64,000 bases of DNA from a virus. The translations under genes were made by a program, and so were the position numbers. The DNA lies in IMG/VR virus record IMGVR_UViG_3300046170_000274, positions 2,897 to 66,896 of that record. One strand, given 5' to 3'. Numbering within the stretch: the stretch's first letter is position 1; the number at the start of each line of letters is the position of its first letter. Under the pieces are notes generated by a model that saw only the letters and a list, made by a program, of their open reading frames with translations, was not told the DNA's origin and ran no database searches. Shown here piece after piece: positions 1-64,000 of the stretch.

Positions 1-339
1 ATACCGTTTAATAAAGATGAAGGCATCAGAGCCATAGCTGCTGATTCAGAAGAAGGTAAAGAAATTACAAAAGGTATATTAGATTTAGCAGATAGATCTA
101 GTGGAGAAAATATTGTTACACTTGCGGATCCTGTATTAGATGCCATTACAGCAATTAAAGCTTTAGAACCTATGGATGCTATGAAAGAAGCAAACTTAGT
201 TGCAGGTAAACAAGGTAAGTATGCAAACTTATCTGATGAACAAGGTAAACAAAATTATAGAAGATACTAACGATCATATCTTTGAAAGAGATCCTATCGA
301 ACCAGAAGACTTTGCAGAAGGTGGACGTGTTAATTTTAA
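1..339 (+). repeat. Wrap-around repeat block 1, copy A (copy B at 60637-60975)
   Basis: By-eye alignment: about 13 substitutions (about 8 synonymous) and 2 single-base indels in ~339 nt; identity ends after ggtggacgtgttaattttaa. Confidence 0.95.
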
Positions 340-1585
340 AGATGGTGGAAGAACAAATTTTTTTAAAGGAGCACAAGCAGATACTAAAAAAGGTAAATCT
401 ATGTCACCAGGAACTTCTGCTAAAGGAGTAGGTAGACAAGATAGAGATTCTCAATACACAGGTGGAGGATATGATTCTTCAAAAAATAAATCAGGAAGAA
501 CAACTACAACAAGCGGAGAAGGTGGAGGAAGTGGTTATACACCAACTTCAGAACCACAAAATATTGATAACAAATTAGTAGCCGAAACAGGTGTTATAGA
601 AAAACAATTAGAAAAAAAATTAAAAAGCTTAATACCAGCAGATTTAAATAAAGATGAAGAAGCTTTATTTCTTATGAACTTAAAAGAAAAATATTTTCCT
701 ACAAAAAGAATTAATGATCCATTTTTTAGAAATACTCAAATTAAAGACAAAGAAATTAATTTACTAGATACTAATCTTTTAGATTTTAAATTAAAACATC
801 CAAACATAAGTATTGAAAACGAATCAGGTTTTATTGATAGAGACAAACTAAAAACAGTAATTGATAATGCACAAATTGTTGGAGATGCATCTTTGTTAAA
901 TGACACATTACAGTTATCTAGAAATCTAGATACTATGGGATCAGGTATAACAGAAATTAATTATACTCCTAATGAGTATCTTAATTTAACCAGTTCTAAT
1001 GTTGAAGATAGAAACTATGATATTACAGGAAAACTTCCAATAGGTCCTTTTGATTTATCTACACAATTAAATTATATGGATAATGAACTTTTAAATAAAA
1101 CCGACAGAATTAATTACGATCAAGATGGTGTAAAAGGTTCTTATGTAGCCGATAAAGATTCTGTAAGACGTAATTTAGATTTAGATAAAAATTATAATAT
1201 AGGTAATTTTGATTTTAGTTTAAAAGGAGGATATGATGATGTTAAATATGATGACGGATATTCTAGATATAGTTCTACTTTAACTCCTAAAATATCTTAC
1301 TCTAATAATATTGGAGATGGCATATTTAAAACAAGTGTTGCAAAAGAACTAATAGAGGGAGGTCAAGTTCCCAATTTAAGTTTCTCTGGTTCTTATCCTG
1401 TAATGGGTGGAGAGCTCACAGGAAATTTTACTAATGTATTAAGTGATGACATGGGTAGTACCATAGGATATGATTATTCCAAAGGTTTACCAGGAAGTAA
1501 TAATTATTTAGAATTTAAAGCAAGAACAGATCCTTTTAACTTAAGAGACTCTGCTTTATTTTTTGGACTTAGAAAGGAAATTTAA
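1..1585 (+). CDS. Putative virion cargo protein A, allele 1 (5' part missing, indel near 243); C-terminal beta-strand-rich module
   Basis: Continuation of the gene starting at 59475; FAEGGRVNFKDGG motif followed by a ~400-aa allele-specific region. Confidence 0.7.
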
Positions 1586-1727
1586 TGGCTTACATATTTG
1601 ATCCAATACGAAACACATTTGTAGATGATGAAGATACAAGTCTTGGTAACAAACTTGCATTAAACGATAACGATGAGTTAGATAAAGCGATTAGACAGCT
1701 CGATGAGCAGTTTGGTCCAGGCACCGT
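1583..1727 (+). repeat. Wrap-around repeat block 2, copy A (copy B at 61915-62054)
   Basis: taatggcttacatatttgatcc...ttaaacgata near-identical in both copies, then gagcagtt(t/c)ggtccaggcaccgtg. Confidence 0.9.
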
Positions 1728-4700
1728 GCAGGAAGGTACAGAAGGTATACCAACCCCTCCTAAAACTATCGAGAGAGATATGTTTAAAAATGCGTTTAAA
1801 GAAAGCGCAGCAGATGGTGGTATGATTGGTGGTGGAACTATAGTCGGTCAAGATATGGGTAATAGAACTGGGTTTGTTGATCCCAAACTTATAATAGGTG
1901 GTTCAAGAACACCTCCACAGTTTAAAGGTATGTTTGGAGTAAGAACAAGTTTAACCGTTCCTGAAAATACACAAGGCTATTTAGGAATGAGTGGTGAACA
2001 GGCTGTATTTGCAACAGAAACAGATGCTCAAAGATTTATAGATGAGGACATACAAAAATTAAATAAAATTGCACAAGAAAATAAAAAAAGAAGTCCTGTT
2101 ATAGAAAAAAGATTAGAAGACATAAGAGAGTATGTTAAAAATTTAAAAGCTTCTGGATCAAAAAAAATATATTTAGATGATATCATAGATAACTTTATAG
2201 GTTCTAAAACTGTTTTTGGAACTGGTAGATATCAAGATGATCAAACAGAAATTAAATCAAGAGTTTCTATAAGAGATAATATTAGAGAAGCTTTAGGTGA
2301 TAAAGAATATAACAAGTTAGAAAAAGGACCTGGAGGAGATAGAAGAATTGTAGATGAGAAAAAAGTTAAATTTAATAAATTAGTACAAGACGTAAATAGA
2401 GGTGATTTACCTATATTAGAATTGGGATCTGAAGCAAGAGGAACAACAACTAATATTAAACAATATCTAACAGCTAATAATAAAAAAAGATTTGATAAGC
2501 TACTTTCTAAATTAAGAGCAATAAACTCTAGATTATCTCAACCACGATCTATTTATACCGATGCAGATCTTGATACAATTTCTAAAACTACTACAAAAAC
2601 ATTTAATAAAATGACAAAAGATTTTCCTAGCGCTATTGAGTCTAGAACTTTAGTATTTAAAGGTGGCACAAGATTTTATGATGCTAAAAGTTACGCTCTT
2701 GCTTTGATTGGAAGACATGTTGAACAAGGAGGTAAACTTTACAAACATGTGGGTGGTGACACTATGAAAGATGTAAAATTTAGAAACACAAAAACTAATA
2801 AATTAATTACTATTAGAAATATGGATTTAAATAGCCCAGAGTTTAAAGAAGTTACTAAAGTTTATAATGAATTTGAAAAATTAAAAAACAGTCAAATAGA
2901 TAATCCATTAACCGGTGAAAAAATTTCGCTTAACAATGCTATAAAAGAAGGTTCAGGTGGAAAAGATTATATAATAATAGATCATACAAAAGGTATTAAA
3001 AAAAGTCCTTTAAAAAATTTAATTATTACTACTCAAAAACAAAACATAGGTTTTGAATTAGCAGGATTAAGTGACCAAGATAAAAAAAGATTTTATAGAG
3101 AAAAAGTAGATTTTGATACTAACTTAGATAGATTTACTAAATATGGTCAAAGACTTTTAACAAAAGGTAATTACAAAAAACCTACAGAAACTGTTGAAGA
3201 ATCAAGATCATTATTAGATAAAATAAAAAGTGGCGCCTCATCTATTAAAAACAAAATGGATGCTACTAAAATGCTTTCGAGTAAAATACCCGGTGGAGCT
3301 ATTGCATTAACTCCTCTTGATTTTACAATGAGCATGGCTTCAGGAATGCCTTTAGCAGAATCATTAGCTAGTGCTGGATCTTATTTAATTAAAGATCCAT
3401 ACTTAGGAAGAGCTGTTAATGTGCCTTTAGCAATAGCACAAGATATGCAAGATCCAGAACAAGCTTTAGCAAAAGGAATTGAACGTGGAGAAAAAGCAGA
3501 AGCTTTCTTACAAGATTTAGTAAGTGGTTTAAAAGAAGGTGCCGGTGATCAACCTGATATAGATCCTTTTCAAGCAGCAGAAGGTGGCCGTGCAGGATAT
3601 AAAACAGGTGGTGGTGTAGAAATTACTCCAATGCCAAGAGTAGATTTCAATGGCGGTGGTGCAGTTGGTGCTGATGATGACTTTGCAAAAGAACTAGAAT
3701 ATTTTTTATTGAACCCAGAAGCTGAATTACCAAAAGCAGATAGCTACAGAGAAACCATGAACCCTGTTGCGTTATTAAATGACATGATCGATCCAAGAAA
3801 CTACGCATACTACGCAGATAGATTAGCAGAGACTGGTATTAGAGTTGGTGAGTTTGGTGCAAGAGTATTACCTGCACTTGGTCAGTTGACCGCGGATCTT
3901 ATACAAAGACCTGCGTTCAAAGTTACAGGCGGCACGGGTCAAGGTTATGTTCAAGACTACACAGATATAATGCCATCTAATATTAAAGGTACAGGAATCT
4001 TTACTGAGTTCTTAGATAACTTAGTTGGAACAGAAGGTACAAAAGTTATTACAGAAAAAACAGGATTAAAAAGTTTAATTGAATCTGAAGAACAAAAACA
4101 AAAAGATAGAAGATCAACTATTGGTCCTAAAGTATTAGCAGACCAAGTAACTCTTGGTGCAGAACTTACAGCACCTATATTTCCTGGTTTAAAATTATTA
4201 AAAGCTTATGCTAAAAATAGAAAGCTACCGGTTAATGATACGACAAAAGAAATTTTAAACAAAGAAATTGATGAAGTGTTATCAGCACAAAATTTAACAC
4301 GTAGAGATTTTTTAAAAGCAACAGGTGCAGGTGGTACAATTATTCTTGCTAAGATGTTAGGCTTTGGAGATGAACTTGCAACTACAACTAAGGTTGCAGA
4401 AAAAGTTGCAAAAGACACAGTAGGTGGAACTTACCCTCCTCCGTATTTTTTTAAACTAGTAGAAAAAATTAGATTTATGGGAGACGACATAACTGAAAAA
4501 GCTGCAACACAAGATAGACAAGTTGTTAAAAAATATAAAGATTATGAAATGAGTGAAGATGCTGCAACAGGAGAAATTACAATTTTAAAAAGAAATGAAG
4601 GATCTTTTTATGATCAAGATGGTATACTATCTGAAGAATATATAGTTTATAAACCAGGTATAGCTGATGAGACAACAAAAGGCACTCCTCCTCCTGAATA

Positions 4701-4824
4701 TGAAGAGTTTACATTAAGACCAGATGGTGAGGGTAAATTAAAAGATTCTGAAGATGGCCTAGATAGCATAGAAGAAATTTTAGAAGAAGTAGGTGACCCT
4801 GATTCTTTAACACTTAAAAAATGA
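1585..4824 (+). CDS. Putative virion cargo protein B, allele 1 (1079 aa), with central HNH-like module and internal twin-arginine-like motif
   Basis: Intact ORF; AADGG and AAEGG motifs; IIIDH...NLIITTQKQN; LTRRDFLKATGAGG. Confidence 0.7.
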   Translation: MAYIFDPIRNTFVDDEDTSLGNKLALNDNDELDKAIRQLDEQFGPGTVQEGTEGIPTPPKTIERDMFKNAFKESAADGGMIGGGTIVGQDMGNRTGFVDPKLIIGGSRTPPQFKGMFGVRTSLTVPENTQGYLGMSGEQAVFATETDAQRFIDEDIQKLNKIAQENKKRSPVIEKRLEDIREYVKNLKASGSKKIYLDDIIDNFIGSKTVFGTGRYQDDQTEIKSRVSIRDNIREALGDKEYNKLEKGPGGDRRIVDEKKVKFNKLVQDVNRGDLPILELGSEARGTTTNIKQYLTANNKKRFDKLLSKLRAINSRLSQPRSIYTDADLDTISKTTTKTFNKMTKDFPSAIESRTLVFKGGTRFYDAKSYALALIGRHVEQGGKLYKHVGGDTMKDVKFRNTKTNKLITIRNMDLNSPEFKEVTKVYNEFEKLKNSQIDNPLTGEKISLNNAIKEGSGGKDYIIIDHTKGIKKSPLKNLIITTQKQNIGFELAGLSDQDKKRFYREKVDFDTNLDRFTKYGQRLLTKGNYKKPTETVEESRSLLDKIKSGASSIKNKMDATKMLSSKIPGGAIALTPLDFTMSMASGMPLAESLASAGSYLIKDPYLGRAVNVPLAIAQDMQDPEQALAKGIERGEKAEAFLQDLVSGLKEGAGDQPDIDPFQAAEGGRAGYKTGGGVEITPMPRVDFNGGGAVGADDDFAKELEYFLLNPEAELPKADSYRETMNPVALLNDMIDPRNYAYYADRLAETGIRVGEFGARVLPALGQLTADLIQRPAFKVTGGTGQGYVQDYTDIMPSNIKGTGIFTEFLDNLVGTEGTKVITEKTGLKSLIESEEQKQKDRRSTIGPKVLADQVTLGAELTAPIFPGLKLLKAYAKNRKLPVNDTTKEILNKEIDEVLSAQNLTRRDFLKATGAGGTIILAKMLGFGDELATTTKVAEKVAKDTVGGTYPPPYFFKLVEKIRFMGDDITEKAATQDRQVVKKYKDYEMSEDAATGEITILKRNEGSFYDQDGILSEEYIVYKPGIADETTKGTPPPEYEEFTLRPDGEGKLKDSEDGLDSIEEILEEVGDPDSLTLKK

Positions 4825-4979
4825 AAAAATTAACTAAAACAATACCACCTAAAAGAGGTCCTAATCCACAGGGGTTGAATATTCCTCTAAAACAAGTTAA
4901 AGTGTCAAATACACAGGAGAAAATAAATGGCAGACATAGACAAGTCTTTACCAAACGTAAAGACATCAATAACGGTTGA
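4821..4979 (+). CDS. Small basic peptide (MKKLTKTIPPKRGPNPQGL...), 52 aa
   Basis: ATG overlaps the upstream stop (ATGA); manual translation; below ORF-track cutoff. Confidence 0.5.
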   Translation: MKKLTKTIPPKRGPNPQGLNIPLKQVKVSNTQEKINGRHRQVFTKRKDINNG

Positions 4980-7364
4980 TCCCGAAGAAGAAATAGAAAT
5001 TGCAGAACAGAAGGAAATAGAAGCTTCTGAAGAACCTGTAGAGGTTAACCCTCAAGAAGATGGTAGTGTAGAAATTAATTTTGATCCAAGCAAAGTAAAC
5101 ATTGAAGGTCAACAAGGACATTTTGATAACTTAGCAGAATTATTACCTGAAGATATTTTAGATCCAATAGGAAGTGAGTTAGTTGAAAACTATATGGACT
5201 ACAAAGCATCAAGAAAAGATTGGGAACAATCTTACACAACAGGTTTAGAATTACTTGGTTTTAAATATGAAAACAGATCAGAACCTTTTCAAGGAGCTAG
5301 TGGTGCAACTCACCCAGTTCTTAGCTGAAGCTGTTACACAGTTTCAAGCGGGAGCTTACAAAGAATTATTACCAGCAGAAGGACCTGTTAGAACTCAAAT
5401 AGTAGGTAACTCAGATCAAAATAAAGAAGCTCAAGCACAACGTGTTAAAGATTACATGAACTATGAGTTAATGGAAAAAATGAATGAGTATGAACCAGAG
5501 TTTGATCAAATGTTATTTCACTTACCATTAGCTGGATCTACATTTAAAAAAGTTTATTATGACGATTTACTAGGACGAGCTGTTTCAAAGTTTGTTCCAG
5601 CAGATGATTTAGTCGTTCCGTATTCTGCTACCTCATTAGAGGATGCGGAAGCGATTATTCAAACAATTAAAATATCAGAAAATGATTTACGTAAACAACA
5701 AGTAGCTGGTTTCTACAGTGACATTGAATTACAAAAACCACAAAGTATTTCAAAAGACGAAATAGAAAATAAAGAGAGAGAATTAGAAGGAACTAAAAAA
5801 ACAGGTAAGCAAGAAAATATTTATACTTTATTAGAATGTCATGTTAATTTAGATTTAGAAGGATTTGAAGATAAAGACCAAGAGTTAAATGAAACAGGAA
5901 TTAAGTTACCGTATATTGTAACTATTGATGAATCATCTAGACAAGTTTTATCTATCAGAAGAAACTTTGAACCAACAGACCCAAAGAAAAATAAAATACA
6001 ATATTTTGTACATTTTAAATTCTTACCAGGTTTAGGTTTTTATGGTTTTCGGTCTAATCCACATGATAGGTGGACTGTCTAGAACAGCGACCGCAGCTTT
6101 GAGACAGTTATTGGATGCGGGAACGTTATCTAATCTGCCAGCTGGATTTAAACAACGTGGAATAAGAGTTAGAGATGAAGCAGCACCATTACAACCAGGT
6201 GAATTTAGAGATGTAGATGCTCCAGGTGGTAATTTAAGAGATGCTTTTATGACTCTTCCTTACAAAGAGCCATCAGGAACGTTATTACAATTAATGGGAA
6301 TAGTTGTACAAGCTGGTCAGAGATTTGCAGCTATTGCTGATATGCAAGTGGGTGAGGGTAACCAAGGCGCTGCAGTAGGAACTACTGTTGCACTTCTTGA
6401 ACGTGGTTCACGTGTTATGTCTGCAATACATAAAAGATTATATTCAGGTATGAAACAAGAATTCAAATTATTATCTAAAGTATTCAAAACATATTTACCA
6501 CCTGTTTATCCTTTTGATGTAGTAGGTGGCAGAAGAGAAATTAAACAAATGGATTTTGATGACAAAGTAGATATTTTACCTGTTGCAGATCCAAACATTT
6601 TTTCTATGGCGCAAAGAATTTCTATGGCACAAACTGAATTGCAACTTGCAACATCACAGCCACAACTGCATAATTTATATGCAGCTTATAGAAAAATGTA
6701 TGAAGCATTGGGTATTAAAAATATTGATCAAATATTACCACCTCCTGCACCAGTTCAACCAATAGATCCAAGTTTAGAACACATAAATGCTTTGGGTGGA
6801 AAACCTTTTCAAGCTTTTCGTGGACAAGACCACACTGCACACATAACTGCACACTTAACTTTTATGTCAACTAATATGGTTAGAAATAATCCTGCTATTA
6901 TGGCATCAATTCAAAAAAATATTCTTGAACATATTAGTCTAATGGCACAAGAACAAGTAGAATTAGAGTTTGCAGAGCCATTACAACAAATGCAAATGCT
7001 TCAAATACAAGCTCAACAAGATCCACAAGCTAAACAACAGCTTCAACAGTTGTCAGAACAGATAGAAGCAAGAAAAGCAGTGTTAGTTGCAGAGCTAACA
7101 GGCGATTTTGCTAAAGAAGAAAAAGAAATTACGTCTCAATTTGACTCTGATCCACTTTTAAAACTAAAATCTAGAGAAGTTGATCTAAGAGCAATGGAAA
7201 ATGAACGTAAAAAAGAAGCTGATGAAGCAAAAGCTGACCTAGATAGAGCAAAATTAGTTCAAGCTAGAGAAATTTTTGACGATAAGCTTGAACAAAACCA
7301 AGATTTAGCAGAATTAAGAGCTGGAGTAAGTCTTGCAAAAAAAAATAATACTAATATAAATTAA
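4927..7364 (+). CDS. Portal protein (split by two apparent sequencing indels near 5320 and 6050)
   Basis: Three overlapping ORFs join into ~810 aa with portal-like motifs (EPFQGASGATHP, LPLAGSTFKKVYYD, FLPGLGFYG, LLDAGTLSNLP); lies between terL and capsid genes. Confidence 0.85.
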
Positions 7365-20303: not shown

Positions 20304-20306
20304 ATT

Positions 20307-20819: not shown

Positions 20820-20821
20820 TT

Positions 20822-21157: not shown

Positions 21158-21183
21158 TATAAGTACAACAAAGGAGAACAAAA

Positions 21184-21534: not shown

Positions 21535-21546
21535 GGAGATTAACAA

Positions 21547-22607: not shown

Positions 22608-22619
22608 GGAAAATAAAAT

Positions 22620-23786: not shown

Positions 23787-23787
23787 A

Positions 23788-24087: not shown

Positions 24088-24089
24088 TT

Positions 24090-24909: not shown

Positions 24910-24912
24910 ACC

Positions 24913-30146: not shown

Positions 30147-30174
30147 AACTCAAGCTTGTTAGATATAATAAATT

Positions 30175-53539: not shown

Positions 53540-53587
53540 AGCTTGCTGCTTGGAGCTTGACGCTTGCTGCTTGAAGCTTGATGCTTT
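53453..53587. repeat. Tandem heptamer array NN-GCTTG (19 units)
   Basis: GCTTG every 7 nt (15 perfect, 4 degenerate, one 9-nt step). Confidence 0.9.
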
Positions 53588-53706
53588 GGCCCTGACCAGG
53601 TGCACGCTCGCTTGCAGCCGTCGCTTCAGCATTGCTAATGACCTGATCAGATTTATTACGCTCGCGTAATTCTTTATAATATTTTGGATGTTTAAATACA
53701 AACATT

Positions 53707-54306: not shown

Positions 54307-54360
54307 AATTCTTTCTCCTTTAATTTATAGGATACAATAACATTATAATTTAATCTTGTC

Positions 54361-54409
54361 AAGCTTGCAGCCTGACGCTTGCAGCTTGAGGCTTGTCGCT
54401 TGTAGCTCG
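54361..54409. repeat. Heptamer array NN-GCTTG (7 units) abutting a minus-strand TTGACA
   Basis: aagcttg cagcctg acgcttg cagcttg aggcttg tcgcttg tagctcg. Confidence 0.8.
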
Positions 54410-54806
54410 GGCCCTGGTCCTCTAACCAGCGCGCATGCTGCAGGAAGACTCGGGCCATTGCTGGCCCTGGTCGTCTACTCATTTCAAGTATCCAATCTCT
54501 TTCAGGTAGTCATAGGCATCATCCATCGTGGATCTAAAATGCTCAGTCCTGTATTCAGCTGGACAGTCTTCGTCAGCCTGGCAGCACATGGCTGCCAGGT
54601 GAGCTGCAAGTTTTTTTTCTTTATCAGTCATGCATCCACTCCTTCGACAGCTCATCCGTCTCAGGTTCCGGGAAGCGTTTAGCCATCTTTCTCCTGATCA
54701 GCCTTTACCAGCCGGAGGATCTCTTCCAGTGCGTTTGCTATTCTGTTAAGCTGTGAACCAGCTTCATATATTTTCATTTTACTCATAATTATTCCTTTCT
54801 AAATAC

Positions 54807-54865
54807 ATCCTACATTATCCTTGAGCCATTGTCAAGCGTTGCTTGCTGCTTGAGGCTTGAAGCTC
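54807..54865 (-). promoter_or_regulatory. Minus-strand promoter TTGACA-17-TAGGAT with upstream GCTTG heptamers
   Basis: Reverse complement ttgaca atggctcaaggataatg taggat; 3-4 heptamers at 54839-54865. Confidence 0.6.
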
Positions 54866-54877
54866 AACTCTCCCCTT

Positions 54878-55480
54878 CTTTAGAATGATTTTTAGAATCA
54901 TTCTAAAGTGGCTCTCCGGTAGGTCTCACCCGAGATTATTCCTAACGCGTGCCGCGCATAGCGTCCAAGACCAATGGGCCACAATTCATATTACCCGTTG
55001 CGCCTCCTGATCAGGGAACTCGGCGCACCATGGTGTTACACACATCGCTAGGTTGCCCATCATCGCTAACGTACAGGGAAATGCCAAAGGCAAGATTTGG
55101 ACGCTGGTGTACTCTTACTGATACTATTATTAGCAGGACCCTGAGTTGAGGCCGGCGTGCTTTATTTTAACAGCCCGGGCAACAGGCCTAACAAGTTATC
55201 ACTTGTCAGGGTCCAGCAAATAACAGGACCATTACACAAAGTCATAGGTAATGGTCCTTTGATCAGTCACTATGCTACGAGGGGGGTTACCGGCCACAGT
55301 TTCAGGTAACATTCGGGGATCCCTTTACCGCCCACCTTGTTATAGTGTTTATCTCCACAGTCAACAATGACTGATCCCAGATCCATCCCACCCTTTCGTT
55401 TGTTACATAGACACTTGTTAATGTGCCAGCGTAATGGATCAGGGATCAGTAGCACTCAATGGCTATCTTCCAGAGTGCTA
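54878..55480. ncRNA. Candidate structured non-coding region (series of stem-loops)
   Basis: GC-rich, no credible ORF, at least six inverted-repeat stems. Confidence 0.45.
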
Positions 55481-55505
55481 ATGATCTCTACTTGTTTAGA
55501 GTATT

Positions 55506-55546
55506 AATATATAATCCTTGACTATCCTATTGTCAAGTAGTAAAAC
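55506..55546. promoter_or_regulatory. Overlapping divergent sigma70-like promoters with ATCCTA box
   Basis: Plus strand TTGACT-17-TAAAAC; minus strand TTGACA-17-TATATA. Confidence 0.5.
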
Positions 55547-55580
55547 AAATTAAAATAAATTAAATATAGAAAGGTCTAAA

Positions 55581-56546
55581 ATGACAAAAATAAGAATGAA
55601 TACAGAGTTGCGAAACAAACTCTTTAATAAAATAAAAAATGTCTTTGAGAACGAGGACACTCAAGAACGAGAGGCATATCTTCAATCAAGAGAGTATGTT
55701 GATGAGCAATATAAAACTGCACAGAACTTGCAAAGAAGTTGTTGAGAGATCATATCCAACAGAAGATGTTGCAACTTTAAGACACTTTAAAAATAAATAT
55801 GGAAGTCCTTGTGATGTTGTTGCAAAAGATAAATGCTTTTACTTTGCACATAGTGAGGGACAAAGATGATGAGGGCGATATAAAAGAAACTAAATCACAC
55901 TTTGATTTTGGTTTGTTTGGTAATCTAAATGGTAGTGAGTACGGTAGTGAAGACGGGACAAAAGTTTGCACTTGCATATTTTAGAGAAGATTTAAAAGCT
56001 ATGGATTGCAACCCAGATATCTATGCACAACAAAAAGAAAACAAAGACAATCCACACAAAACAAAACATGTTGATGAGTGTTTAAAAGCACTTGGCAAAG
56101 TTGGTAATTATCATTCTTCAAATGATAATGTTGGTATGGCAAAAACATTTGATGACCAATATTATCTTGATGTAATTGGAACATCTTATTGCAGATCACG
56201 TGCTATCGCTTGTACTAAAGATGAGTATGAGGCATTTGAAACTTGGCGAATTGCAAAAGCTAATGTGGTATCTAAACACCAAACATGGATTGATACAATT
56301 CAAAAACAATGCGATCAGTTAAAGATTGGATTGAAAGCATACAGATATCTTTCAGAGGGTATTGAACTTGCTACTGAACTTGGAATACAATTAGATGAGG
56401 CAGAGTTAATTAGAACTAACTCAACAGGTTTGACTATCTATAATCCAAGCAACTTGGCTAGTATGATTAAAGGTATGAAGAATAAAAATCAATCAAGAGA
56501 GGCGAAGATATTGGCTAGAAAAAAATATGAAGAAAGTCTAAATTAA
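55581..56546 (+). CDS. Hypothetical early protein (~320 aa, indels)
   Basis: MTKIRMNTELRNKL start with AGAAAGG RBS; joins three ORF fragments. Confidence 0.55.
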
Positions 56547-56549
56547 AGT

Positions 56550-56587
56550 TTGACAAATAGGACTATCTAATATAGGATAGTCCTATT
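56550..56587 (+). promoter_or_regulatory. Promoter TTGACA-17-TAGGAT within a 12-bp inverted repeat
   Basis: ttgaca aataggactatc taatatag gatagtcctatt. Confidence 0.7.
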
Positions 56588-56604
56588 AACTAGAAAGGTA
56601 TAAT

Positions 56605-56793
56605 ATGACAAACAAAACATTCTATATAACTTATTGGGCTTCTAAACATAAGAAGCACATTACAAGAAAAGGCAAACATGACGACAAGTCAAGATATGGC
56701 ACATCTAAACAAGGTGTACCCTATTATGTTTATTATGACTTAGATAGTCATGGTTACAGAACTGCAACTACAACATGGAAAGTGAGGCACTAA
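56605..56793 (+). CDS. Small basic early protein
   Basis: FYITYW...YYDLD..GYRTA; AGAAAGG RBS. Confidence 0.6.
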   Translation: MTNKTFYITYWASKHKKHITRKGKHDDKSRYGTSKQGVPYYVYYDLDSHGYRTATTTWKVRH

Positions 56794-56948
56794 TGTTATA
56801 CGCAATTTACTTTGCATTGCATTTTGCAATGTGTTTTTTAGGGATAGTAATAGCCATGCATTTTGACATGACTATTGGTTTATTAATTGCAACTACATTT
56901 GGAGTTAAGTTTCTTTTTATGTTGCCAAATAATAGAGAGGGTTACTAA
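56793..56948 (+). CDS. Small two-TM membrane protein, 51 aa
   Basis: Manual translation MLYAIYFALHFAMCFLGIVIA...; coupled at both ends. Confidence 0.5.
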   Translation: MLYAIYFALHFAMCFLGIVIAMHFDMTIGLLIATTFGVKFLFMLPNNREGY

Positions 56949-57298
56949 TGCCAAATAAACATTTTTGCCAAGGACCAAGATGTCATGAACAAGTTACACA
57001 AGATAGATTTCTAAAATCTCGTGGTGTAATTCGTGGACGATATGCATATGCAGATAGAGATAGAACACCTAACTCGTGGGGTTATCTACCAAACATGAGT
57101 GATGTTTATTTCTGTAGTCAATCATGTAAGTTTGATTGGTTAGGTCTTAACATGGAAAACATTGAACAAGGTCGACCGATAGAGTTTATAAGACACAGAC
57201 GAGAGAGCCAAGGTTATGCCAAGGTCAAGAACGATGAGTCTAGGTGGGGTCCAGAATATTCTATTCAAAGGGTTGACAATGGTCAGCTTATAGAGTAG
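56948..57298 (+). CDS. Zinc-binding hypothetical protein
   Basis: CQGPRC...YFCSQSC. Confidence 0.55.
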   Translation: MPNKHFCQGPRCHEQVTQDRFLKSRGVIRGRYAYADRDRTPNSWGYLPNMSDVYFCSQSCKFDWLGLNMENIEQGRPIEFIRHRRESQGYAKVKNDESRWGPEYSIQRVDNGQLIE

Positions 57299-57309
57299 GA
57301 TAATCCTAT
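57273..57309 (+). promoter_or_regulatory. Promoter TTGACA-17-TAGGAT followed by ATCCTA
   Basis: ttgaca atggtcagcttatagag taggataatccta. Confidence 0.7.
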
Positions 57310-57327
57310 TAACAAGAAAGGTATATT

Positions 57328-57543
57328 ATGAAAAAAGAACCAATTAAAAAACTAAAAGAAGAGTTTCTACCAGGGGGCTCAATGAGACAGTACATTTTAG
57401 ATAAGGCTGTCCATTACTTACAACAACCAGGACTACAAGCAAACAAGCATATGTTTTGTATTGATATACTTAAGATGACGGAGACTGAATATCTTGAGGC
57501 ACTTAACAAAGCAACTAACGGAGGGTTAGAACAATGGAACTAA
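57328..57543 (+). CDS. Hypothetical protein
   Basis: AGAAAGG RBS; 71 aa. Confidence 0.55.
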   Translation: MKKEPIKKLKEEFLPGGSMRQYILDKAVHYLQQPGLQANKHMFCIDILKMTETEYLEALNKATNGGLEQWN

Positions 57544-57773
57544 AAGATAACAAGACAGAACAACGTAAGAATAGATTCAATGGCGAGTCTATTATGTTGA
57601 CAAAGGAAGAAGCTATCATTCATGATAGAATCTTTATCAATGAGATGGAAGCAACACTAGAAGATCAAGACGCAGGTGTTGACGGTACGTCAAAGCTTTG
57701 GGACAAAGTACGTAAAGACATCAACTACTTCAGACAGCATAATGCTGAAGCATACATGGTGTTATTAGATTAA
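57534..57773 (+). CDS. Hypothetical protein
   Basis: RKNRFNGES..LT...AEAYMVLLD. Confidence 0.6.
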   Translation: MELKDNKTEQRKNRFNGESIMLTKEEAIIHDRIFINEMEATLEDQDAGVDGTSKLWDKVRKDINYFRQHNAEAYMVLLD

Positions 57774-57786
57774 CACCAACCTTTCT

Positions 57787-57810
57787 GCCTAGGCGCTAAC
57801 GCGCCTAGGC
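57787..57810. other. Perfect GC-rich hairpin upstream of terL
   Basis: gcctaggcgc-taac-gcgcctaggc. Confidence 0.6.
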
Positions 57811-57989
57811 GCACGGATCCCTATCCAATACCAACATTGCAACTAACGTCGACCCCACCCACCCTTTGCACAAAAAGGGGTCCCACTACTCTAGGTTGTA
57901 TTGCTTGATTTAGACAGATAAGGGTGGTAAAAACATATTCAACACTTTATGGTGCAAAAAAATTATAAAAAAATTTTTTAAAAAATTTT

Positions 57990-59482
57990 ATGAATTTAAA
58001 TAACGTAGATATTAGTAAGCTACCTGCAGACGTCAGAAAGACATTCAAGAAACTGCAAGTCATGCATGCAGAAAAACAAATCCAAGGTAAAGCCAGAGAT
58101 GACTTCATGTCCTTTGTCAAATGTGTGTGGCCCGATTTTGTAGAAGGCTCGCACCACAGACACATAGCAAAAAAATTTAATCAACTTGCATCGGGAGAAA
58201 TAAACTCGACTGATAGTAAATATGCCTCCACGTCATACGAAATCAGAATTTGCAAGTTACTTGTTACCAGCGTGGATGGTGGGCCGTAACCCTAAGTTAA
58301 AAATAATCCAAGCAACTCACACAGGAGAACTAGCCGTACGATTTGGTCGTAAAGCTAAGACCTTGATTGATAGTGACGACTATGGAAAAATATTTGAAAC
58401 AAGACTAAGAGAAGATTCGCAAGCCGCTGGTAGGTGGGAAACAGCACAAGGTGGTGAGTATTTTGCAGCTGGTGTCGGCGGTGCAATAACCGGACGGGGT
58501 GCTGACCTATTAATAATTGATGACCCACATTCTGAGCAAGACGCAATGAGTCCGACTGCAATGGAGTCTGCTTATGAATGGTACACATCAGGACCAAGAC
58601 AACGTCTTCAACCTGGTGGTAAAATTATATTGGTAATGACAAGATGGTCTAACAAAGATCTTACAGGAAAATTAATTGCAAACCAAAAAGAAGCTAAAGC
58701 TGATCAGTGGCACGTGGTCTCTTTTCCAGCAATCATGGACCATGGATCAAAGAAAGCTAAACCAGTTTGGCCTGAGTACTGGAAGCTCGATGAATTAGAG
58801 AAAGTCCAAGCAACACTGCCCACGGGCAAATGGAATGCGCAGTGGATGCAAAACCCAACGTCTGATGAAGGTGCAATTATAAAACGTGAATGGTGGAGAG
58901 TGTGGAAGAATGATTGGATACCAGAACTGCATCATGTCATACAATCTTATGATACAGCATTTTTAAAAAAAGAAACTGCAGACTACTAGTGCTATTACTA
59001 CTTGGGGTGTATTTTACCCGGACCAAGACTCAGTGGTCCTAATTTAATTTTACTTGATGCTATAAAAGAACGGTTTGAGTTTCCTGAACTAAGGCGTAAG
59101 GCCTTTAGAGCAATATGAGTATTGGCAACCAGAATCAGTTATAGTTGAGGCTAAAGCTAGTGGTTTACCTCTAACTTATGAGCTTAGAAAGATGAATATA
59201 CCTGTAACTAATTTTACACCTAGTAAAGGAAATGATAAACATGCTAGGGTCAATTCTGTTGCACCTTTGTTTGAATCTGGTATGATATGGGCGCCTGAAC
59301 AAAAGTTTGCAGATGAAGTTATAGAGGAATGTGCAGGCTTTTCCATATGGTGACCATGATGACTTTAGTCGACTCTACGACTCAAGCTCTCATGCGCTTT
59401 AGACAAGGTGGTTTCGTACAACACCCAGAAGATTACTAGTGACGAACCTCTTAACCAACGTAAACGACAGTATTATGGATGA
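57990..59482 (+). CDS. terL: Terminase large subunit (several indels)
   Basis: MPPRHTKS (Walker A variant), LLIIDDPH, VMTRW, QSYDTAF, VEAKASG, FPYG.HDD.VD. Confidence 0.9.
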
Positions 59483-61917
59483 TATAATAAAATTATTGCA
59501 AGAATTGATGTCAAAGAAACCTACCCCTAAAGGTGGGATTGCTGATACTGCAGCAGGTGTAGAGTTTATTGGTAAGAAATTATCTAAAGAACAAGTAGGT
59601 GATTTTACTATTATTGGATCTAAACTAACTGATGCAAGTAGATTTAGACCGTTTGATGTACGAAATGTTGGTAGAGATAATAGATACATGTACATGAGAG
59701 ATTACGCTGATGAATTACAAAGTAACTTTGAAAAGACATTAAGATTTATACAAGACAATCCAGACATTAGATTAACTCAAGCACAGAAAGATAATGTGTT
59801 CTACAATCTTGGTGTTTACAGACGTGTCAATGCTGAAAAAAATAAATTAGAAAAAGGTTATATTGATGAAGGGTAAAAACCCAGAAGAGATTTATAAAAA
59901 AACAGATGATGAAAGACCACTTGAAGAGTTGCCATTTGTAAAAGTTTTAGAGAGAACTAAAAAAACAATAGATGAGTTTCAGAAAAAAGTAAAAGAGACT
60001 GAAGATATATTTAAGCCACCAAGTCCAGAAGAATTATCTGCAGGTCAGATTAGATATAATAAACTGTACAATGGTCCGGGGTACGAGAGAGGTAATTCAA
60101 GTTTATATAGAGGTTATGGTAGTAGCTTTTTACCAAGACTACATGAAAAAGGAATCATCAAACTAGATGATGAGATTTATCAAAACTTAAAACAAGGTAA
60201 GCACCACTATGGTGGAGCAGATTTCTTCGCACCAGATCCTATTAGAATATGGAGAAAACATTTTGGTGATGATGTTTTTGAAAAGTTAGATAACTTCGAT
60301 CCAGATAACGAAGACATCTTTCAATGGCTATCTCGAAACAATATACAACCAACAAACAGAGTTGGTCCTAAGAATGCGTTAGAGTATATGAACTCAACAG
60401 AGATTGGACAAAGATTAGCAGATGAAGCACAACTACTTAACAAGTACAAGGACCCTGCATCACAGGGTGATAATGCTAAATACTATTACGCAGATAAACC
60501 CGATCAGAGAATGGAACGGATCACGTACCACGGAGAAAACATACAAGGCTACGAGACAGCTTTACAGAAAATGGACCCTGAAGCATATAACAAATACGCT
60601 GCAGAGTTCCGTCAAGCAACAAATGACGCAAACGTAATACCGTTTAACAAAGATGAAGGGCATTAGAGCTATAGCTGCTGATTCCGAAGAAGGTAAAGAA
60701 ATTACAAAAGGTATATTAGATTTAGCTGATAGATCTAGCGGAGAAAATATTGTTGCACTTGCGGATCCTGTATCAGATGCCATTGCAGCAATTAAAGCTT
60801 TAGAACCTATGGATGCTATGAAAGAAGCAAACTTAGTTGCAGGTAAACAAGGTAAGTATGCAGACTTATCTGACGAACAGGTAAACAAAATTATAGAAGA
60901 TACTAACGATCACATCTTTGAAAGAGATCCTATCGAACCAGAAGACTTTGCAAAAGGTGGACGTGTTAATTTTAATCAAGGGTCTGCTCCAACAAGTGGT
61001 TTGTTAAACAAATCTTATTGATGTTGCAACAGCAAGTGGTGCACTTGTTAGAGCAACTAGAGCAATCTTTCAACCGCTATGGGTTAATGGGCCGGAAATT
61101 TATCACACTTCTTATTTACAAAATTTTGATATCTATGCCAGTTCAAGATCAGCTAAGCGCTTATATGTCTGGTCATTTAGACAGCTTAGTAGTCCAGATC
61201 CTACTTAATTCTAAGCAGGGGGTCCATTTGAGATGACAGTGGTGTTCTCGTCTGTTACTGGACATGGGTTAGGAACATCAGCTGGCCAAGATCCTATTCA
61301 CTAAAGATTAGCATTAGCTATAGCTGCAACACCTATTCTTCTGCACCCTTCTCGTTTCAAGCTGAAATGATCTTGGAATTTTTGGTGCAAACATAGCTAC
61401 TTTAATATGAACTGATGCAGGTTATGACTATACTTAGGAGTGCTAAATTTGATTTTGCAGACTTTGATACCTAATTCTGGTTTTTCAGGTAAAGTTCAAG
61501 ATTATGATTTTATCAGCCTTCAGACATATAAATTATTTAACACAACCATTTGAAGATATAGCTGCTAATTATGTAGGATCAAAATTACCTTATGGTATGA
61601 GCACTCCACAAAAAATAGCTTTTTTAAGTAATTATAAAAAATTTGGTAATCAAACATTGGATCAAGTAAAAAATCTAGAATTAAAAAAAGTGCAAGATAG
61701 AATTAGAGCTGCTGAACAAAAAGAAAAAATAAGAATAGAAACATTAGCAAGACAAAGAGCAGCACAAGAACAACAAAGACAAGCTGATCAAGCTAGAATA
61801 AATAGAGCGTACAGAGAAGAAACAGGTGGTCAAGGTGGTTCTTATGCTACAGGTCAATCTGGTGTACAATCAGATGGTAGTTACAATGATCCATTTGATC
61901 CAGGAGGAGGAGAATAA
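59475..61917 (+). CDS. Putative virion cargo protein A, allele 2 (indels; 61000-61500 garbled)
   Basis: MDDIIKLLQEL start; fragments join through FAKGGRVNF; ends ...DPFDPGGGE coupled to gene B. Confidence 0.55.
60637..60975 (+). repeat. Wrap-around repeat block 1, copy B
   Basis: About 96% identical to 1-339 by eye. Confidence 0.95.
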
Positions 61918-64000
61918 TGGCTTACATATTTGATCCGATACGTAACACATTTGTAGATGATGAAGATACAAGTCTTGGTAACAAACTTGCATTAAACGAT
62001 ACGTCAGAAGAAATCATTAAACAGATCGACGAGCAGTTCGGTCCAGGCACCGTGTTCCCTGCATCAGAGTTACCTCCCAAAGAAAACCCATACAAAGACT
62101 TTGAAGACAGAAACCCTGCAGCTAATGGTGGGATGATGAGACAGAACTTTGCAGATAATCCATTAAAAAATTTTAACTTTACAGTAGATAACATTCCTCC
62201 AGGATACGAATCTGTTTCTAAATTAGCAGAAAAATTAGGTGTAAGTTATGACTCATTAAAAAGTTATAAAGCATTACATGGAAGTGGTCAGTCCCCCACT
62301 TATGAAAGAATTTTAAATGTATTAGGAGATCCAATAAAAGTTACAGGATTTAAAGATACTTTTGGAGGAGGTGCTTCTCATATAGATTATTTTGATTTAT
62401 CGAAACTAAATGATGAGACTTTAAAAGCTATAAAGGAAAGAAAAGCAATGCCTGATAGAGGAGGTTCAGGCGTAAAAGTTTTAAGTAATAAAAATTTAAA
62501 ACAAAAATTTATTAAAGCTTACAATGATGGATATGGTGGAAGAGATATTATGTCTGTCATTGATCCTGATAACAAATTAAACGTTAATCAAGAAAAATAT
62601 GGTAGTGCAACTTTAACGGAGTTATTAAATAATGAACAAGTAAAACCTAGAAAAGAAGGTTTTATATCTAAAGGGCAAGAACTTTATTTTGAAAAAAATA
62701 GAATACCTATTGATAATCAAATAGTAAAAGTAAATTCTTTTTATAAACCAGGAATGAGTATAGAAAAAGTTACACAAAAACTATTTCCTAACTTTTCACC
62801 TATTATAGAATCAGATTCTTTTAATGTAAGACAAGAAAAAACAAATCAATTAAAAGAAGCTTCTAATAGAATAGTTGATTATAAAGCTTGGTTAAAAGGA
62901 GATAGACCAAGCAGTTCTATTTTAGATAAATTAACTTTACCTAATAACAAAAAACAAATTATAAAATATATTGAAGCTTCAACAGACTCAACATTTGGAA
63001 AATTTGCTAGCACTCAAGAAAGACGATACAAATACTATCAATTAGATAAACTAAATAATAAACCAATGGGTTATTACGACGGTTTAAATAAAAAAATATA
63101 TGCTGATTTTAAAAGACTAGGTTTAAATTATCAAATAGAACATGGTGGAAGTTTATCACAAAGTTTAAAAAAGAAAATTCCTTGGGTTTCTAAATTTGTA
63201 ACTTTTATGAAACCAAAATACAATAGACAAAAAATACCATTAGATATGGATACTGGTATTTTAAAAGCATATGATGTTTTAGAAGATAAAAAATTATCTA
63301 CAGAAGAAAAGAAAAATCACCCTGATGTTAAAAAACATAATAAGGCTGCAAAAGAATTTATGCAAAAAACAGGAACTAAAATACCTGTAATTTCATTTAA
63401 TGAAAAAGATGTTAATAAAATTATTGAAAGAGAAGATGTAGATAAACAAACAAAAACTCAAGTTAAAAATACATTTGATAAAAACGGTTGGACTTTAATT
63501 AACCCTGGAGATCAAATAGAAGAAGTCGTTAAAATAGTAAAAGATGCTGATAAACTTCCAAGCAATAGAAAACAATTAATTGTATCAGGTTTTAGAAATA
63601 AAATAGCTAATTTTTTTCAAGATGCACCTGTTCCAAAAGGAGTTAAACTTCCAATCGGTGCAACAGCTGCAGCATTAGACTTTGCAATCTTTAATGGTTT
63701 AATGGGAATGCCTGCACCAGAAGCGATGTTAGGTTCTTCTCAATGGTTGTTAAAAAATCCAGAAGCTGCTGAAAAAATAGGTAAGTCAATCAATCTTGTA
63801 ATTGAAGGTAAGATGACTGTAGATTCTTTCTTTAATAAAAACTCAGAAGAACTTGGTGGAGTGTTTAAAGATTTAGTTGGTATTGATATGCCGGATGCTT
63901 ACTCAAAAGATGATGAAGTTGGAAATCAAAGATTAAAAGAAATGGATAAAGCAATGGAAGTTCCCAATATGGATGAAACAACAGCCGCACCTTTATATGA
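61917..64000 (+). CDS. Putative virion cargo protein B, allele 2 (3' truncated), HTH plus HNH-like module
   Basis: Manually translated open frame to the window end; first 28 aa identical to the 1585 ORF; AANGGMMRQNF; SVSKLAEKLGVSYDSL; YQIEH...KYN. Confidence 0.8.
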   Translation, partial: MAYIFDPIRNTFVDDEDTSLGNKLALNDTSEEIIKQIDEQFGPGTVFPASELPPKENPYKDFEDRNPAANGGMMRQNFADNPLKNFNFTVDNIPPGYESVSKLAEKLGVSYDSLKSYKALHGSGQSPTYERILNVLGDPIKVTGFKDTFGGGASHIDYFDLSKLNDETLKAIKERKAMPDRGGSGVKVLSNKNLKQKFIKAYNDGYGGRDIMSVIDPDNKLNVNQEKYGSATLTELLNNEQVKPRKEGFISKGQELYFEKNRIPIDNQIVKVNSFYKPGMSIEKVTQKLFPNFSPIIESDSFNVRQEKTNQLKEASNRIVDYKAWLKGDRPSSSILDKLTLPNNKKQIIKYIEASTDSTFGKFASTQERRYKYYQLDKLNNKPMGYYDGLNKKIYADFKRLGLNYQIEHGGSLSQSLKKKIPWVSKFVTFMKPKYNRQKIPLDMDTGILKAYDVLEDKKLSTEEKKNHPDVKKHNKAAKEFMQKTGTKIPVISFNEKDVNKIIEREDVDKQTKTQVKNTFDKNGWTLINPGDQIEEVVKIVKDADKLPSNRKQLIVSGFRNKIANFFQDAPVPKGVKLPIGATAAALDFAIFNGLMGMPAPEAMLGSSQWLLKNPEAAEKIGKSINLVIEGKMTVDSFFNKNSEELGGVFKDLVGIDMPDAYSKDDEVGNQRLKEMDKAMEVPNMDETTAAPLY

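What the first reader, a model, noticed from the sequence alone, without database searches (positions are those of the whole stretch)
60637..64000. The two copies of the redundant region carry different alleles with swapped cassettes
Seen: 1-339 matches 60637-60975 at about 96%, with mostly synonymous substitutions, so these look like real alleles rather than read noise. After that, 340-1582 and 60976-61914 are unrelated. Identity returns at the A/B gene junction (1583-1727 vs 61915-62054) and is then lost again. Both genes between terL and portal therefore consist of conserved scaffolds around exchangeable modules. Inference: either one terminally redundant chromosome from recombination between two co-infecting relatives, or an assembly joining two strains. 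Either way it exposes a hypervariable cassette locus.
Basis: partly seen in the sequence, partly recalled or inferred. Interest (0 to 1): 0.85.

Follow-up and report, generated by a model that had tools for sequence, protein, structure and literature searches.

The report
Two alleles of a phage cassette island
The two ends of this marine phage contig overlap but carry different versions of a fast-swapping pair of genes between the DNA-packaging and portal genes; the locus is real and has many alleles in the sea, while the joining of two versions in one sequence is most likely a product of assembly.

Summary
The window is bases 2897-66896 of a 66,896-bp virus record. The whole record overlaps itself: contig 1-6266 against 60631-66896, for a unit of about 60.6 kb.

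The first 3.2 kb (terL plus the core of gene A) is 87% identical between the copies. The rest is unrelated, except for a 146-bp island at the start of gene B.

The phage is an HTVC023P-type pelagiphage relative. In 68 related loci the terL-portal gap runs from 103 bp to 7.4 kb.

Gene B has a conserved N-terminal anchor of about 75 aa and a conserved C-terminal region of about 400 aa. Between them lies a cassette that falls into 17 unrelated clusters among 81 homologues. The head and tail alleles each have independent, intact relatives.

The contig carries frameshift errors, concentrated in the segments that many strains share. I therefore read it as a mixed-population consensus that wraps round the genome along two haplotypes (about 70%), not a real heterozygous molecule (about 15%).

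The function of A and B is unknown. The scan had already seen terL-portal accessory slots in other phages.

The parts
57735..64000 (+). Tail copy of the 6.27-kb self-overlap of the record (contig 60631-66896). Its partner is contig 1-6266, that is 2896 bases upstream of the window plus window 1-3370.
   Evidence: Self-blastn of the whole record; window placement.
57969..59454 (+). terL, tail copy, read in frames 1>2>3>2 (frameshift errors).
   Evidence: PHROG 38 and Pfam Terminase_6N. tblastn with HTVC027P, psg01 and G001 TerL. Short-read contigs lack one base at 58206 and at 58986-58989.
59475..61021 (+). Gene A, tail allele: a conserved all-helical core of about 500 aa that ends 15 codons after the motif. 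It has two frameshift errors, near 59870 and 60658.
   Evidence: Collinear with the intact 501-aa A of L008/G001 at 83-90% aa identity in three frames. L047, L009 and L010 A also match. AF2 model of L008 A has mean pLDDT 85.
60950..60982 (+). Motif AKGGRVNFNQG at the end of the A core. The head/tail/G001 breakpoint is here (identity ends at 60975).
60976..61914 (+). Tail-specific 0.94-kb segment between the A core and B. It has no coherent long frame (ORFs of 72 and 137 aa), no relative among the 80 loci, and is rare in public runs.
   Evidence: Depth is 0-5 in most bins, and variants skip it.
61917..62132 (+). Gene B, tail allele: conserved N-terminal anchor of 72 aa ending in AANGG.
62133..64000 (+). 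Gene B, tail allele: cassette of the 'tail type', cut by the end of the record just before the second motif.
   Evidence: Same cassette in intact proteins such as P0015 (1086 aa). Contigs of 1947 nt in runs X1 and X4 cover 62108-64000 with 4-6 differences.
1..339 (+). End of the gene A core, head allele (A starts at contig 1734, outside the window). The motif AEGGRVNFKDG is at 314-346.
340..1585 (+). Head-specific C-terminal extension of gene A (about 415 aa), related to the C-terminus of the 1276-aa A of L010 and to a 405-aa ORF of L017.
   Evidence: tblastn at 34% and 29% identity.
1585..4824 (+). Gene B, head allele, 1079 aa with an intact frame. N anchor 1585-1821; cassette 1822-3645; motif AAEGGRAGYKTGG at 3577; conserved C-terminal region 3646-4821; Tat-like RRDFLK plus hydrophobic stretch at about 4291-4360.
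4927..7364 (+). Portal gene, right border of the island, read in three frames (two frameshift errors).
   Evidence: tblastn with the portal proteins of HTVC027P and psg01 at 50-70% identity, frames 2>3>1.

Best explanation
The record is a long-read-type consensus of a microdiverse population of HTVC023P-type pelagiphage relatives. It runs about 1.1 times round a 60.6-kb circular or circularly permuted map. Its two overlapping ends follow two different haplotypes.

The overlap happens to cover a real hypervariable island between terL and portal. The island holds two translationally coupled genes.
- A is a conserved helical core with an optional C-terminal extension.
- B is a short conserved N-terminal anchor, an exchangeable cassette of about 500-800 aa, and a conserved C-terminal region of about 400 aa.

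Alleles are exchanged by homologous recombination in the conserved flanks: the A core, the 0.2-kb start of B, and the 1.2-kb end of B. The joints fall at a short peptide motif, A-x-G-G-R-(I/V)-G-(F/Y)-x-x-G, which lies in segments that were modelled at low confidence.

Shown here: the overlap, the alleles, the multi-allelic cassettes, the shared breakpoints, the motif enrichment and the contig's errors.

Inferred: the contig is not one physical molecule; recombination in the anchors is the mechanism; and A and B are accessory proteins that act at the host envelope or travel in the virion.
For: Overlap and divergence.

Phage group: TerL is 76% identical to phage 023Pt_psg01 and 75% to HTVC027P. 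In those phages two unnamed genes lie between terL and portal.

Island:
- 68 of 80 related IMG/VR loci show both borders, with gaps of 103-7441 bp; 12 gaps are 150 bp or less.
- G001 (61,917 bp, closes on itself by a 98-bp exact overlap) is collinear with our contig. Head and tail copies both stop matching it at G001 56613.

Cassettes:
- 475 B homologues at E<=1e-3.
- 81 of 126 have both anchors and fall into 17 cassette clusters, 7 members each for the head and tail types.
- One N anchor (DFEDRNPA-A-x-GG) precedes 9 of the 17 clusters.
- Head and tail cassettes are not related by profile comparison (probability 3%).

Motif:
- 79 strict hits in 63,624 aa.
- Only 3 hits in the six-frame translation of the whole contig, all in A or B.
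- Similarity breaks lie within 5 aa of a motif in 14.4% of cases against 3.5% at random.

Errors:
- 21 frame switches in 26 gene copies, none in either B allele, most in terL, the A core, the portal and one gene at 58.5-59.4 kb.
- Short-read contigs of four runs lack the extra base at the frameshift sites (table 4).

Population:
- Summed contig depth is tens to thousands in terL and 4-21 in the tail cassette.
- Run X7 joins 60961 to 61918 directly.
- Run X4 replaces 60660-61917 by 798 other letters.
Against: No raw read was available, so a single molecule with both alleles is not excluded.

The 110% length is what a headful-packaged, terminally redundant DNA could have.

The clustering of frameshifts in shared segments would also arise if one real read had been polished with reads of many strains.

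Depth from Logan contigs sums relatives at 90% likeness or more and is only a rough guide.

Similarity-break enrichment near the motif is inflated by the motif's own conservation and by non-independent pairs.

No function was found for A or B: there was no Pfam, PHROG, NCBIfam, PDB or fold match.
Confidence: 0.7

Rival explanations
1. The record reflects one real DNA molecule. It would be a headful-packaged, terminally redundant chromosome (or a stretch of concatemer) cut from a recombinant concatemer made in a cell co-infected by two relatives. Its two redundant ends would then be heterozygous, like the terminal-redundancy heterozygotes of T4 (recalled from classical genetics; no call).
For: The record is 110% of the unit length.

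TerL is of the Terminase_6 (T4-like) type; terminases of this type are often headful, which is recalled and not tested.

Both alleles exist independently in nature, and many lineages co-occur in the same samples.
Against: The copies differ by 13% in terL, so they are far apart.

The contig's frameshifts cluster where strains share sequence, as expected of a mixed consensus.

A close relative assembles as a plain circle.

No read evidence was obtained.
Confidence: 0.15
2. The differences between the two copies are sequencing noise in a true exact repeat.
For: The contig has many one-base indels: 33 one-base gaps between the copies in 3.2 kb.
Against: Stretches of 100 nt have up to 28 substitutions and no gap.

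8 of 13 codon changes in window 1-339 are synonymous.

Segments of 1.2 kb against 0.9 kb, and 3.2 kb against 2.1 kb or more, are unrelated.

Both B alleles have near-identical intact relatives elsewhere.
Confidence: 0.01
3. A and B are host-recognition proteins (tail fibres or spikes) with a conserved particle-binding N-terminus and a variable receptor-binding part. This is the usual content of hypervariable islands in marine phages.
For: Both have a conserved N-terminal anchor followed by variable sequence. The island under-recruits in metagenomes.
Against: 12 of 68 relatives have nothing between terL and portal.

The A core is modelled as all-helical with high confidence.

B keeps a conserved C-terminus of 400 aa.

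The relative G001 encodes a 1526-aa tail-spike-like protein elsewhere.

No fibre or spike family matched.
Confidence: 0.1
4. The A-x-G-G-R motif is a processing site. A and B would be polyproteins cut into modules, and cutting would free C-terminal modules that begin with a Tat-like signal for export to the host envelope.
For: The motif recurs up to 4-5 times per protein, between different modules, in segments that were modelled at low confidence.

A motif lies 30 aa or less upstream of RRxF[LM][KRQ] at 25 of 37 sites in A-type representatives and 17 of 30 sites in island ORFs.

Five relatives encode the same C-terminal domain as a separate ORF that starts M-x-(R/K)R-x-(F/L)-(L/I)-K plus a hydrophobic stretch.
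Against: No protease was found: 26 ORFs of G001 were scanned, and the only peptidase is an M15 endolysin-type.

In B homologues, 0 of 120 RR sites have a motif within 30 aa.

The Tat-signal model passes its cut-off in only 1 of 5 stand-alone forms and 0 of 3 fused A-type proteins tested.

There is no experimental evidence.
Confidence: 0.2

Closest known systems
Metaviromic (hypervariable genomic) islands of marine phages (Mizuno et al. 2014, PMC3909814, abstract seen; Warwick-Dugdale et al. 2019, PMC6487183, abstract seen)
   Same: This is a stretch of a very abundant marine phage genome that recruits far less from metagenomes than its flanks. It differs in gene content between close relatives, and short-read assemblies break there.
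   Different: The locus lies between terL and portal, not in a tail-fibre region. It holds two mosaic genes with fixed anchors and a specific junction motif. I found no description of it in the passages I read of PMC9599517, PMC11598899 and bioRxiv 10.1101/2019.12.14.876532.
Accessory slot between terminase and portal genes in other phages
   Same: The position is the same and the content is swappable. Relatives have nothing or something else there.
   Different: Here the cargo is co-oriented and translationally coupled with terL and portal. Variation acts inside the genes, at anchors, rather than by whole-gene replacement only.
Polymorphic toxin-type proteins whose variable part is set off by a short conserved motif, such as VENN in CdiA (recalled; no call)
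   Same: A conserved part is joined to many unrelated variable parts at a short, sharply placed peptide motif. Anchors and cassettes reassort.
   Different: No toxin or immunity family was detected. The variable part of B is internal, with a conserved C-terminus after it. The host is a lytic phage.
Terminal-redundancy heterozygotes of phage T4 (recalled; no call)
   Same: It would be a DNA longer than one genome whose two redundant ends carry different alleles.
   Different: Here it is seen only in a consensus sequence of unknown read support, and the two ends are 13% diverged and partly non-homologous.
Motif-guided module swapping in T-even tail-fibre adhesin genes (recalled; no call)
   Same: Short conserved motifs inside a mosaic structural-module gene mark the recombination joints.
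   Different: The motif and the proteins are different, and there is no evidence that A or B is an adhesin.

Membership tests
HTVC023P-type pelagiphage group | Sequence similarity and synteny with HTVC023P and HTVC027P (terL, two unnamed genes, large portal, GroES) | tested here: met
   TerL is 75% identical to HTVC027P and 65% to HTVC023P. The portal is 50-70% identical. Gene order is the same. Cpn10 is present in the close relative G001.
HTVC023P-type pelagiphage group | Infects Pelagibacter (SAR11) | not testable with these tools
   The host is inferred from cultured relatives only.
Metaviromic / hypervariable island | Under-recruitment in metagenomes relative to flanking genome | tested here: met
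   Summed contig depth in four runs is tens to thousands in terL and 4-21 in the tail B cassette. This is a rough measure.
Metaviromic / hypervariable island | Different gene content at the same position in close relatives | tested here: met
   Gaps of 103-7441 bp in 68 loci. 17 cassette clusters in 81 B proteins.
Terminally redundant headful-packaged chromosome | The same sequence at both ends of one physical molecule | tested here: inconclusive
   The ends overlap by 6.27 kb but are 87% identical and then unrelated. No raw read was seen; run contigs cannot show it.
Terminally redundant headful-packaged chromosome | Headful-type terminase | tested here: inconclusive
   Terminase_6N and 6C domains are present. 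The packaging mode cannot be read from that alone.
   No such family was found for head B or tail B in Pfam at E<=0.01-0.05 or NCBIfam at E<=0.01, nor in PHROGs at E<=0.001 for head B. Structure was not tested for the cassette.
Tat (twin-arginine) signal peptide | S/T-R-R-x-F-L-K plus hydrophobic stretch scoring above the model's cut-off | tested here: inconclusive
   TIGR01409 is above its cut-off (16.7 bits) in 5 of 5 full-length B proteins tested (17.0-19.1 bits). It passes in only 1 of 5 stand-alone forms and 0 of 3 fused A-type proteins. Pfam TAT_signal stays below its cut-off.
Tat (twin-arginine) signal peptide | N-terminal position | tested here: not met
   In B it lies at residue 903 of 1079. 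It is N-terminal only in five separate ORFs of more distant relatives.
Polymorphic toxin system | Recognisable toxin domain and adjacent immunity gene | tested here: not met
   No toxin family was found in Pfam, NCBIfam or PHROGs for A or B. No small gene follows B before the portal, apart from a conserved 50-60 aa ORF.

The most novel reading that the evidence does not exclude
A and B are modular polyproteins of the ocean's most abundant phage group. The A-x-G-G-R-(I/V)-G-(F/Y) motif would be both the joint at which modules are shuffled and the site at which the proteins are cut. Cutting would release interchangeable effector modules, together with a C-terminal module whose Tat-like signal takes it to the host envelope. 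This would be a plug-and-play delivery scaffold that has not been described. Separately, the record could be a directly sequenced terminal-redundancy heterozygote from a natural co-infection.
Probability: 0.2. Interest if true: 0.85.

Novelty: new variant of a known kind. Interest (0 to 1): 0.6.

Why it matters

A locus in their packaging module swaps dozens of unrelated cassettes between fixed anchors. It is a likely front line of the phage-SAR11 arms race, and a reason why these genomes assemble badly.

The fixed anchors in terL, the start of B, the end of B and the portal make the locus directly testable by long amplicons.

The motif and the Tat-like domain give concrete hypotheses for proteomics.

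The case also warns that contigs longer than one unit with unlike ends can be population consensus rather than molecules.

Tried and rejected
**Function searches that gave nothing**
- Pfam, PHROGs and NCBIfam on A and B alleles and relatives gave only the Tat-signal model and chance-level rows.
- The ESM Atlas gave only unnamed viral clusters, best score 0.89.
- PDB sequence searches gave E of 0.14 or worse for B and nothing for A.
- AF2 of B residues 660-1079 had mean pLDDT 51; only the last 120 or so residues were confident.
  - Foldseek PDB gave no match at E<=0.001.
  - BFVD gave only uncharacterised uncultured-virus proteins.
  - VIA wide gave a best Z of 5.2.
- AF2 of the A core had pLDDT 85 and was all-helical.
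  - Foldseek PDB gave no match at E<=0.001.
  - VIA wide gave a best Z of 6.8, within the range the tool calls uninformative for helical models.

**HNH guess for the cassette.** No family model supports it. The cassette's fold was not tested.

**Search for a processing protease in the relative G001.** I scanned 26 of its ORFs. Only an M15 peptidase of endolysin type turned up. The other ORFs were not scanned.

**Runs**
- All runs were kept as contigs, so they cannot show whether one molecule holds both alleles.
- No listed piece spans the stretch.
- Bins 61074-61340 had no cover in three of the four runs. That is not evidence of absence.
- The complex-prediction tool was not used.

**Tail-specific 0.94 kb.** blastx and tblastx against the island proteins and the 80 loci found nothing at E<=1e-3.

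**Alternative genetic codes.** They do not explain the broken frames. Table 11 already gives dense long ORFs elsewhere, and the relatives' proteins continue in shifted frames.

**Literature**
- Four searches.
- Passages read of PMC9599517, bioRxiv 10.1101/2019.12.14.876532 and PMC11598899.
- None mentions a terL-portal island or the motif.
- Supplementary tables of those papers were not seen and could list these genes.
- (SAR11 and twin-arginine) gave no usable statement on a Tat system in SAR11.


Full report
**1. What is in the sequence**

The window's first 339 bases match 60637-60975: 325 of 340 columns are identical, with 13 mismatches and 2 one-base gaps. Bases 1583-1728 match 61915-62054 (131 of 146 columns). 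Nothing else in the first 6 kb matches the last 6 kb.

The window is bases 2897-66896 of a 66,896-bp virus record. IMG/VR classes the record as linear and CheckV as 100% complete. With the whole record laid, the match turns out to begin at the record's first base. Contig 1-3235 matches contig 60631-63871 at 87.2% over 3271 columns, with 352 mismatches and 50 gap openings.

The record therefore overlaps itself by 6.27 kb around a unit of about 60.6 kb.

Identity per 100 columns ranges from 63 to 98. In window 1-339, 8 of 13 differing codons are synonymous. These are real, diverged alleles and not noise.

**2. What the genes are**

The overlap begins with terL (Pfam Terminase_6N/6C, PHROG 38). 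TerL is 76% identical to phage 023Pt_psg01, 75% to Pelagibacter phage HTVC027P and 65% to HTVC023P. In those genomes terL is followed by two unnamed genes (483-615 aa and 751-892 aa) and then a portal of about 835 aa. Our record has the same order: terL, A, B, portal (window 4927-7364).

**3. The contig has indel errors**

Against intact proteins of relatives, several genes are read in more than one frame:
- the portal in three frames;
- terL in two frames (head copy) and four segments, 1>2>3>2 (tail copy);
- gene A in five segments (head) and three (tail).

Over all 26 gene copies comparable with the close relative G001 there are 21 frame switches. Neither B allele has one. Most lie in terL, the A core, the portal and one gene at contig 58.5-59.4 kb.

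Between the two copies there are 33 one-base gaps in 3.2 kb, of which 10 are next to the same base. Short-read contigs of four public runs lack exactly one base at the frameshift sites 58206, 58986-58989, 59335/6, 59363/4, 59436/40 and 59869/71 (table 4). Alternative genetic codes do not explain the broken frames.

**4. The island in relatives**

A scan of IMG/VR with TerL returned 80 loci with 76-94% TerL identity. In 68 of them both borders are present, and the terL-portal gap is 103-7441 bp, distributed as follows:

| Gap (bp) | Loci |
|---|---|
| 150 or less | 12 |
| 151-600 | 6 |
| 601-1700 | 11 |
| 1701-3300 | 13 |
| 3301-5500 | 24 |
| over 5500 | 2 |

Most loci hold two tightly coupled, intact ORFs of very different lengths.

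G001, the record of locus L008, is 61,917 bp, and its last 98 bases repeat its bases 3-100 exactly. It is therefore a closed circle from assembly. It is collinear with our contig at about 66-92% identity. Both our head copy (44-3221) and our tail copy (60674-63857) match G001 53448-56613 and stop there. In G001, gene A is an intact 501-aa ORF that ends seven codons after that point, and B follows at once.

**5. Anatomy of A and B**

Gene A:
- A has a conserved core of about 500 aa. AF2 gives mean pLDDT 85, an all-helical fold, and low confidence for the last 17 residues.
- Beyond the shared breakpoint, G001 has nothing more.
- The tail allele stops after 15 codons and is followed by 0.94 kb without a coherent frame or any relative.
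- The head allele goes on for about 415 aa, related to the end of a 1276-aa A in L010.

Gene B:
- A search with the last 420 aa of head B found 475 proteins at E<=1e-3 among 8000 scored. None carries a name other than 'hypothetical protein' or any Pfam domain.
- The sequences share the first 75 or so residues and the last 400 or so (54-96% identity). Between these they hold unrelated segments of about 470-780 aa.
- Of 126 B proteins, 81 had both anchors by pattern. Their middles fall into 17 clusters, with 7 members each for the head type and the tail type.
- P0012 is the head allele with an intact frame. P0015 (1086 aa) is the tail allele. P0015 shows that the record ends just before the second motif and the conserved C-terminus.
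- One N anchor precedes 9 of the 17 clusters, and one cluster follows 10 anchor variants.
- Profile comparison shows that the cassettes are themselves mosaics. The head and tail types are not detectably related (probability 3%).

**6. The junction motif**

The breakpoints fall at A-x-G-G-R-(I/V)-G-(F/Y)-x-x-G.
- A strict form occurs 79 times in 63,624 residues of island ORFs (57 of 149 proteins). The unconstrained position +10 is G in 74 of 78.
- In the six-frame translation of the whole contig the strict form occurs three times, all in A or B.
- A looser form adds two hits in one other gene (window 30833 and 31103) and none in 100 shuffles.
- In G001 that other gene lies next to a weak 'DNA ejection protein' match and a 1486-aa virion protein.
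- Internal ends of blastp similarity lie within 5 aa of a motif in 14.4% of 1147 cases, against 3.5% for random places. These pairs are not independent, and the motif itself seeds alignments.

**7. The Tat-like segment**

B has TRRDFLK plus a hydrophobic stretch at residue 903 of 1079.
- NCBIfam's Tat-signal model is just above its cut-off in 5 of 5 full-length B proteins tested. Pfam's model is below its cut-off.
- The domain after it is shared with the ends of many A-type proteins.
- In those proteins a motif lies 30 aa or less upstream of the RR site at 25 of 37 sites (A representatives) and 17 of 30 sites (island ORFs). In B homologues the figure is 0 of 120.
- Five more distant loci encode the domain as a separate ORF that starts M-x-(R/K)R-x-(F/L)-(L/I)-K. 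Only one of the five passes the NCBIfam model, and none of three fused A-type proteins does.

This suggests envelope targeting and perhaps processing, but it is weak evidence.

**8. Population evidence**

Twenty runs from 18 studies hold 22-57% of the sampled words of the tail region. Laid on window 56001-64000, contigs of four runs show the following:
- Summed depth is tens to thousands over terL and falls through A.
- Depth is 0-5 over most of 61074-61874.
- There is a peak at the start of B.
- The tail cassette has a flat 4-21.
- One run joins 60961 to 61918 with five letters between, as in G001.
- Another run replaces 60660-61917 by 798 other letters.
- Contigs of 1947 nt in two runs cover 62108-64000 with 4-6 differences.

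The tail allele is therefore real, rare and one of several.

**9. One molecule or an assembly**

I could not see raw reads. I favour a mixed-population consensus (about 70%) for these reasons:
- The two copies are 13% apart in terL.
- The frameshift errors sit where many strains share sequence and are absent from the strain-specific B cassettes.
- A close relative closes as a simple circle.

A real terminally redundant heterozygote stays possible (about 15%). The 110% length would fit headful packaging.

**10. Function**

No family, solved structure or fold matched A or B. A and B are dispensable, since 12 of 68 relatives lack them, and they are co-oriented and coupled with the packaging genes.

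My best guess is accessory proteins that act at the host envelope, or are carried in the particle and injected, with exchangeable parts under arms-race selection. That step is inference.

**11. Novelty**

Hypervariable islands of marine phages are known (PMC3909814, PMC6487183; abstracts seen). This scan has also noted terL-portal slots in other phages. The fixed-anchor cassette design, the junction motif and the Tat-like module in this very abundant group were not mentioned in the passages I read. Supplements were not available.

Noticed in passing
whole window; e.g. 4927-7364, 9675-10662, 30175-32269, 33363-37811, 55581-56515, 57969-61021: The record carries about one frame switch per 1.6 kb of comparable coding sequence (21 in 26 gene copies). 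They are concentrated in segments shared by many strains. ORF calls on this record are unreliable.
   Followed up: yes
window 30172-32106 (motif at 30833 and 31103): A third gene carries two copies of the looser tag (A-A-x-G-G-L-M-R-x-N-Y-x-x-G). Its G001 counterpart lies beside a weak 'DNA ejection protein' match and a 1486-aa virion protein.
   Followed up: partly
window 4291-4360; loci L054 6356-7030, L058 5634-6497, L068 9114-9893, L073 6642-8267, L056 4774-5973: The Tat-like RRxFLK plus hydrophobic stretch is internal in B. It is N-terminal in five stand-alone ORFs of more distant relatives, so the gene is fused or split at that point.
   Followed up: partly
window 60659-61918: Public runs hold other arrangements of the A/B junction: a direct join 60961>61918 (run X7) and a 798-letter replacement of 60660-61917 (run X4).
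   Followed up: partly
window 60976-61914: The tail-specific 0.94 kb has no coherent frame and no relative, and is nearly absent from four runs. It could be a decayed or error-rich insert.
   Followed up: partly
window 53449-53586: Self-blast shows a short tandem array (units offset by about 35-100 nt).
   Followed up: no
window 19228-24731: Several 40-160-nt stretches recur at 75-90% identity between two neighbouring gene sets, which suggests duplicated tail-module genes.
   Followed up: no
G001 (loci L098, L099): 2982-3398, 15251-16132, 23988-24923, 33791-34267: The close relative encodes a Cpn10/GroES, two glycosyltransferase-like proteins and an M15 peptidase. It also has Pam3 gp32-34-like proteins at 35746-37428.
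   Followed up: no
loci L022, L024, L025, L041 and 8 others: In 12 of 68 relatives terL and portal are 103-140 bp apart, with no gene between.
   Followed up: yes
window 4821-4976 and loci such as L008 7922-8080: A small 50-60 aa ORF is conserved just before, and overlapping the start of, the portal in many relatives. It may be part of the portal's true start or a separate small gene.
   Followed up: no
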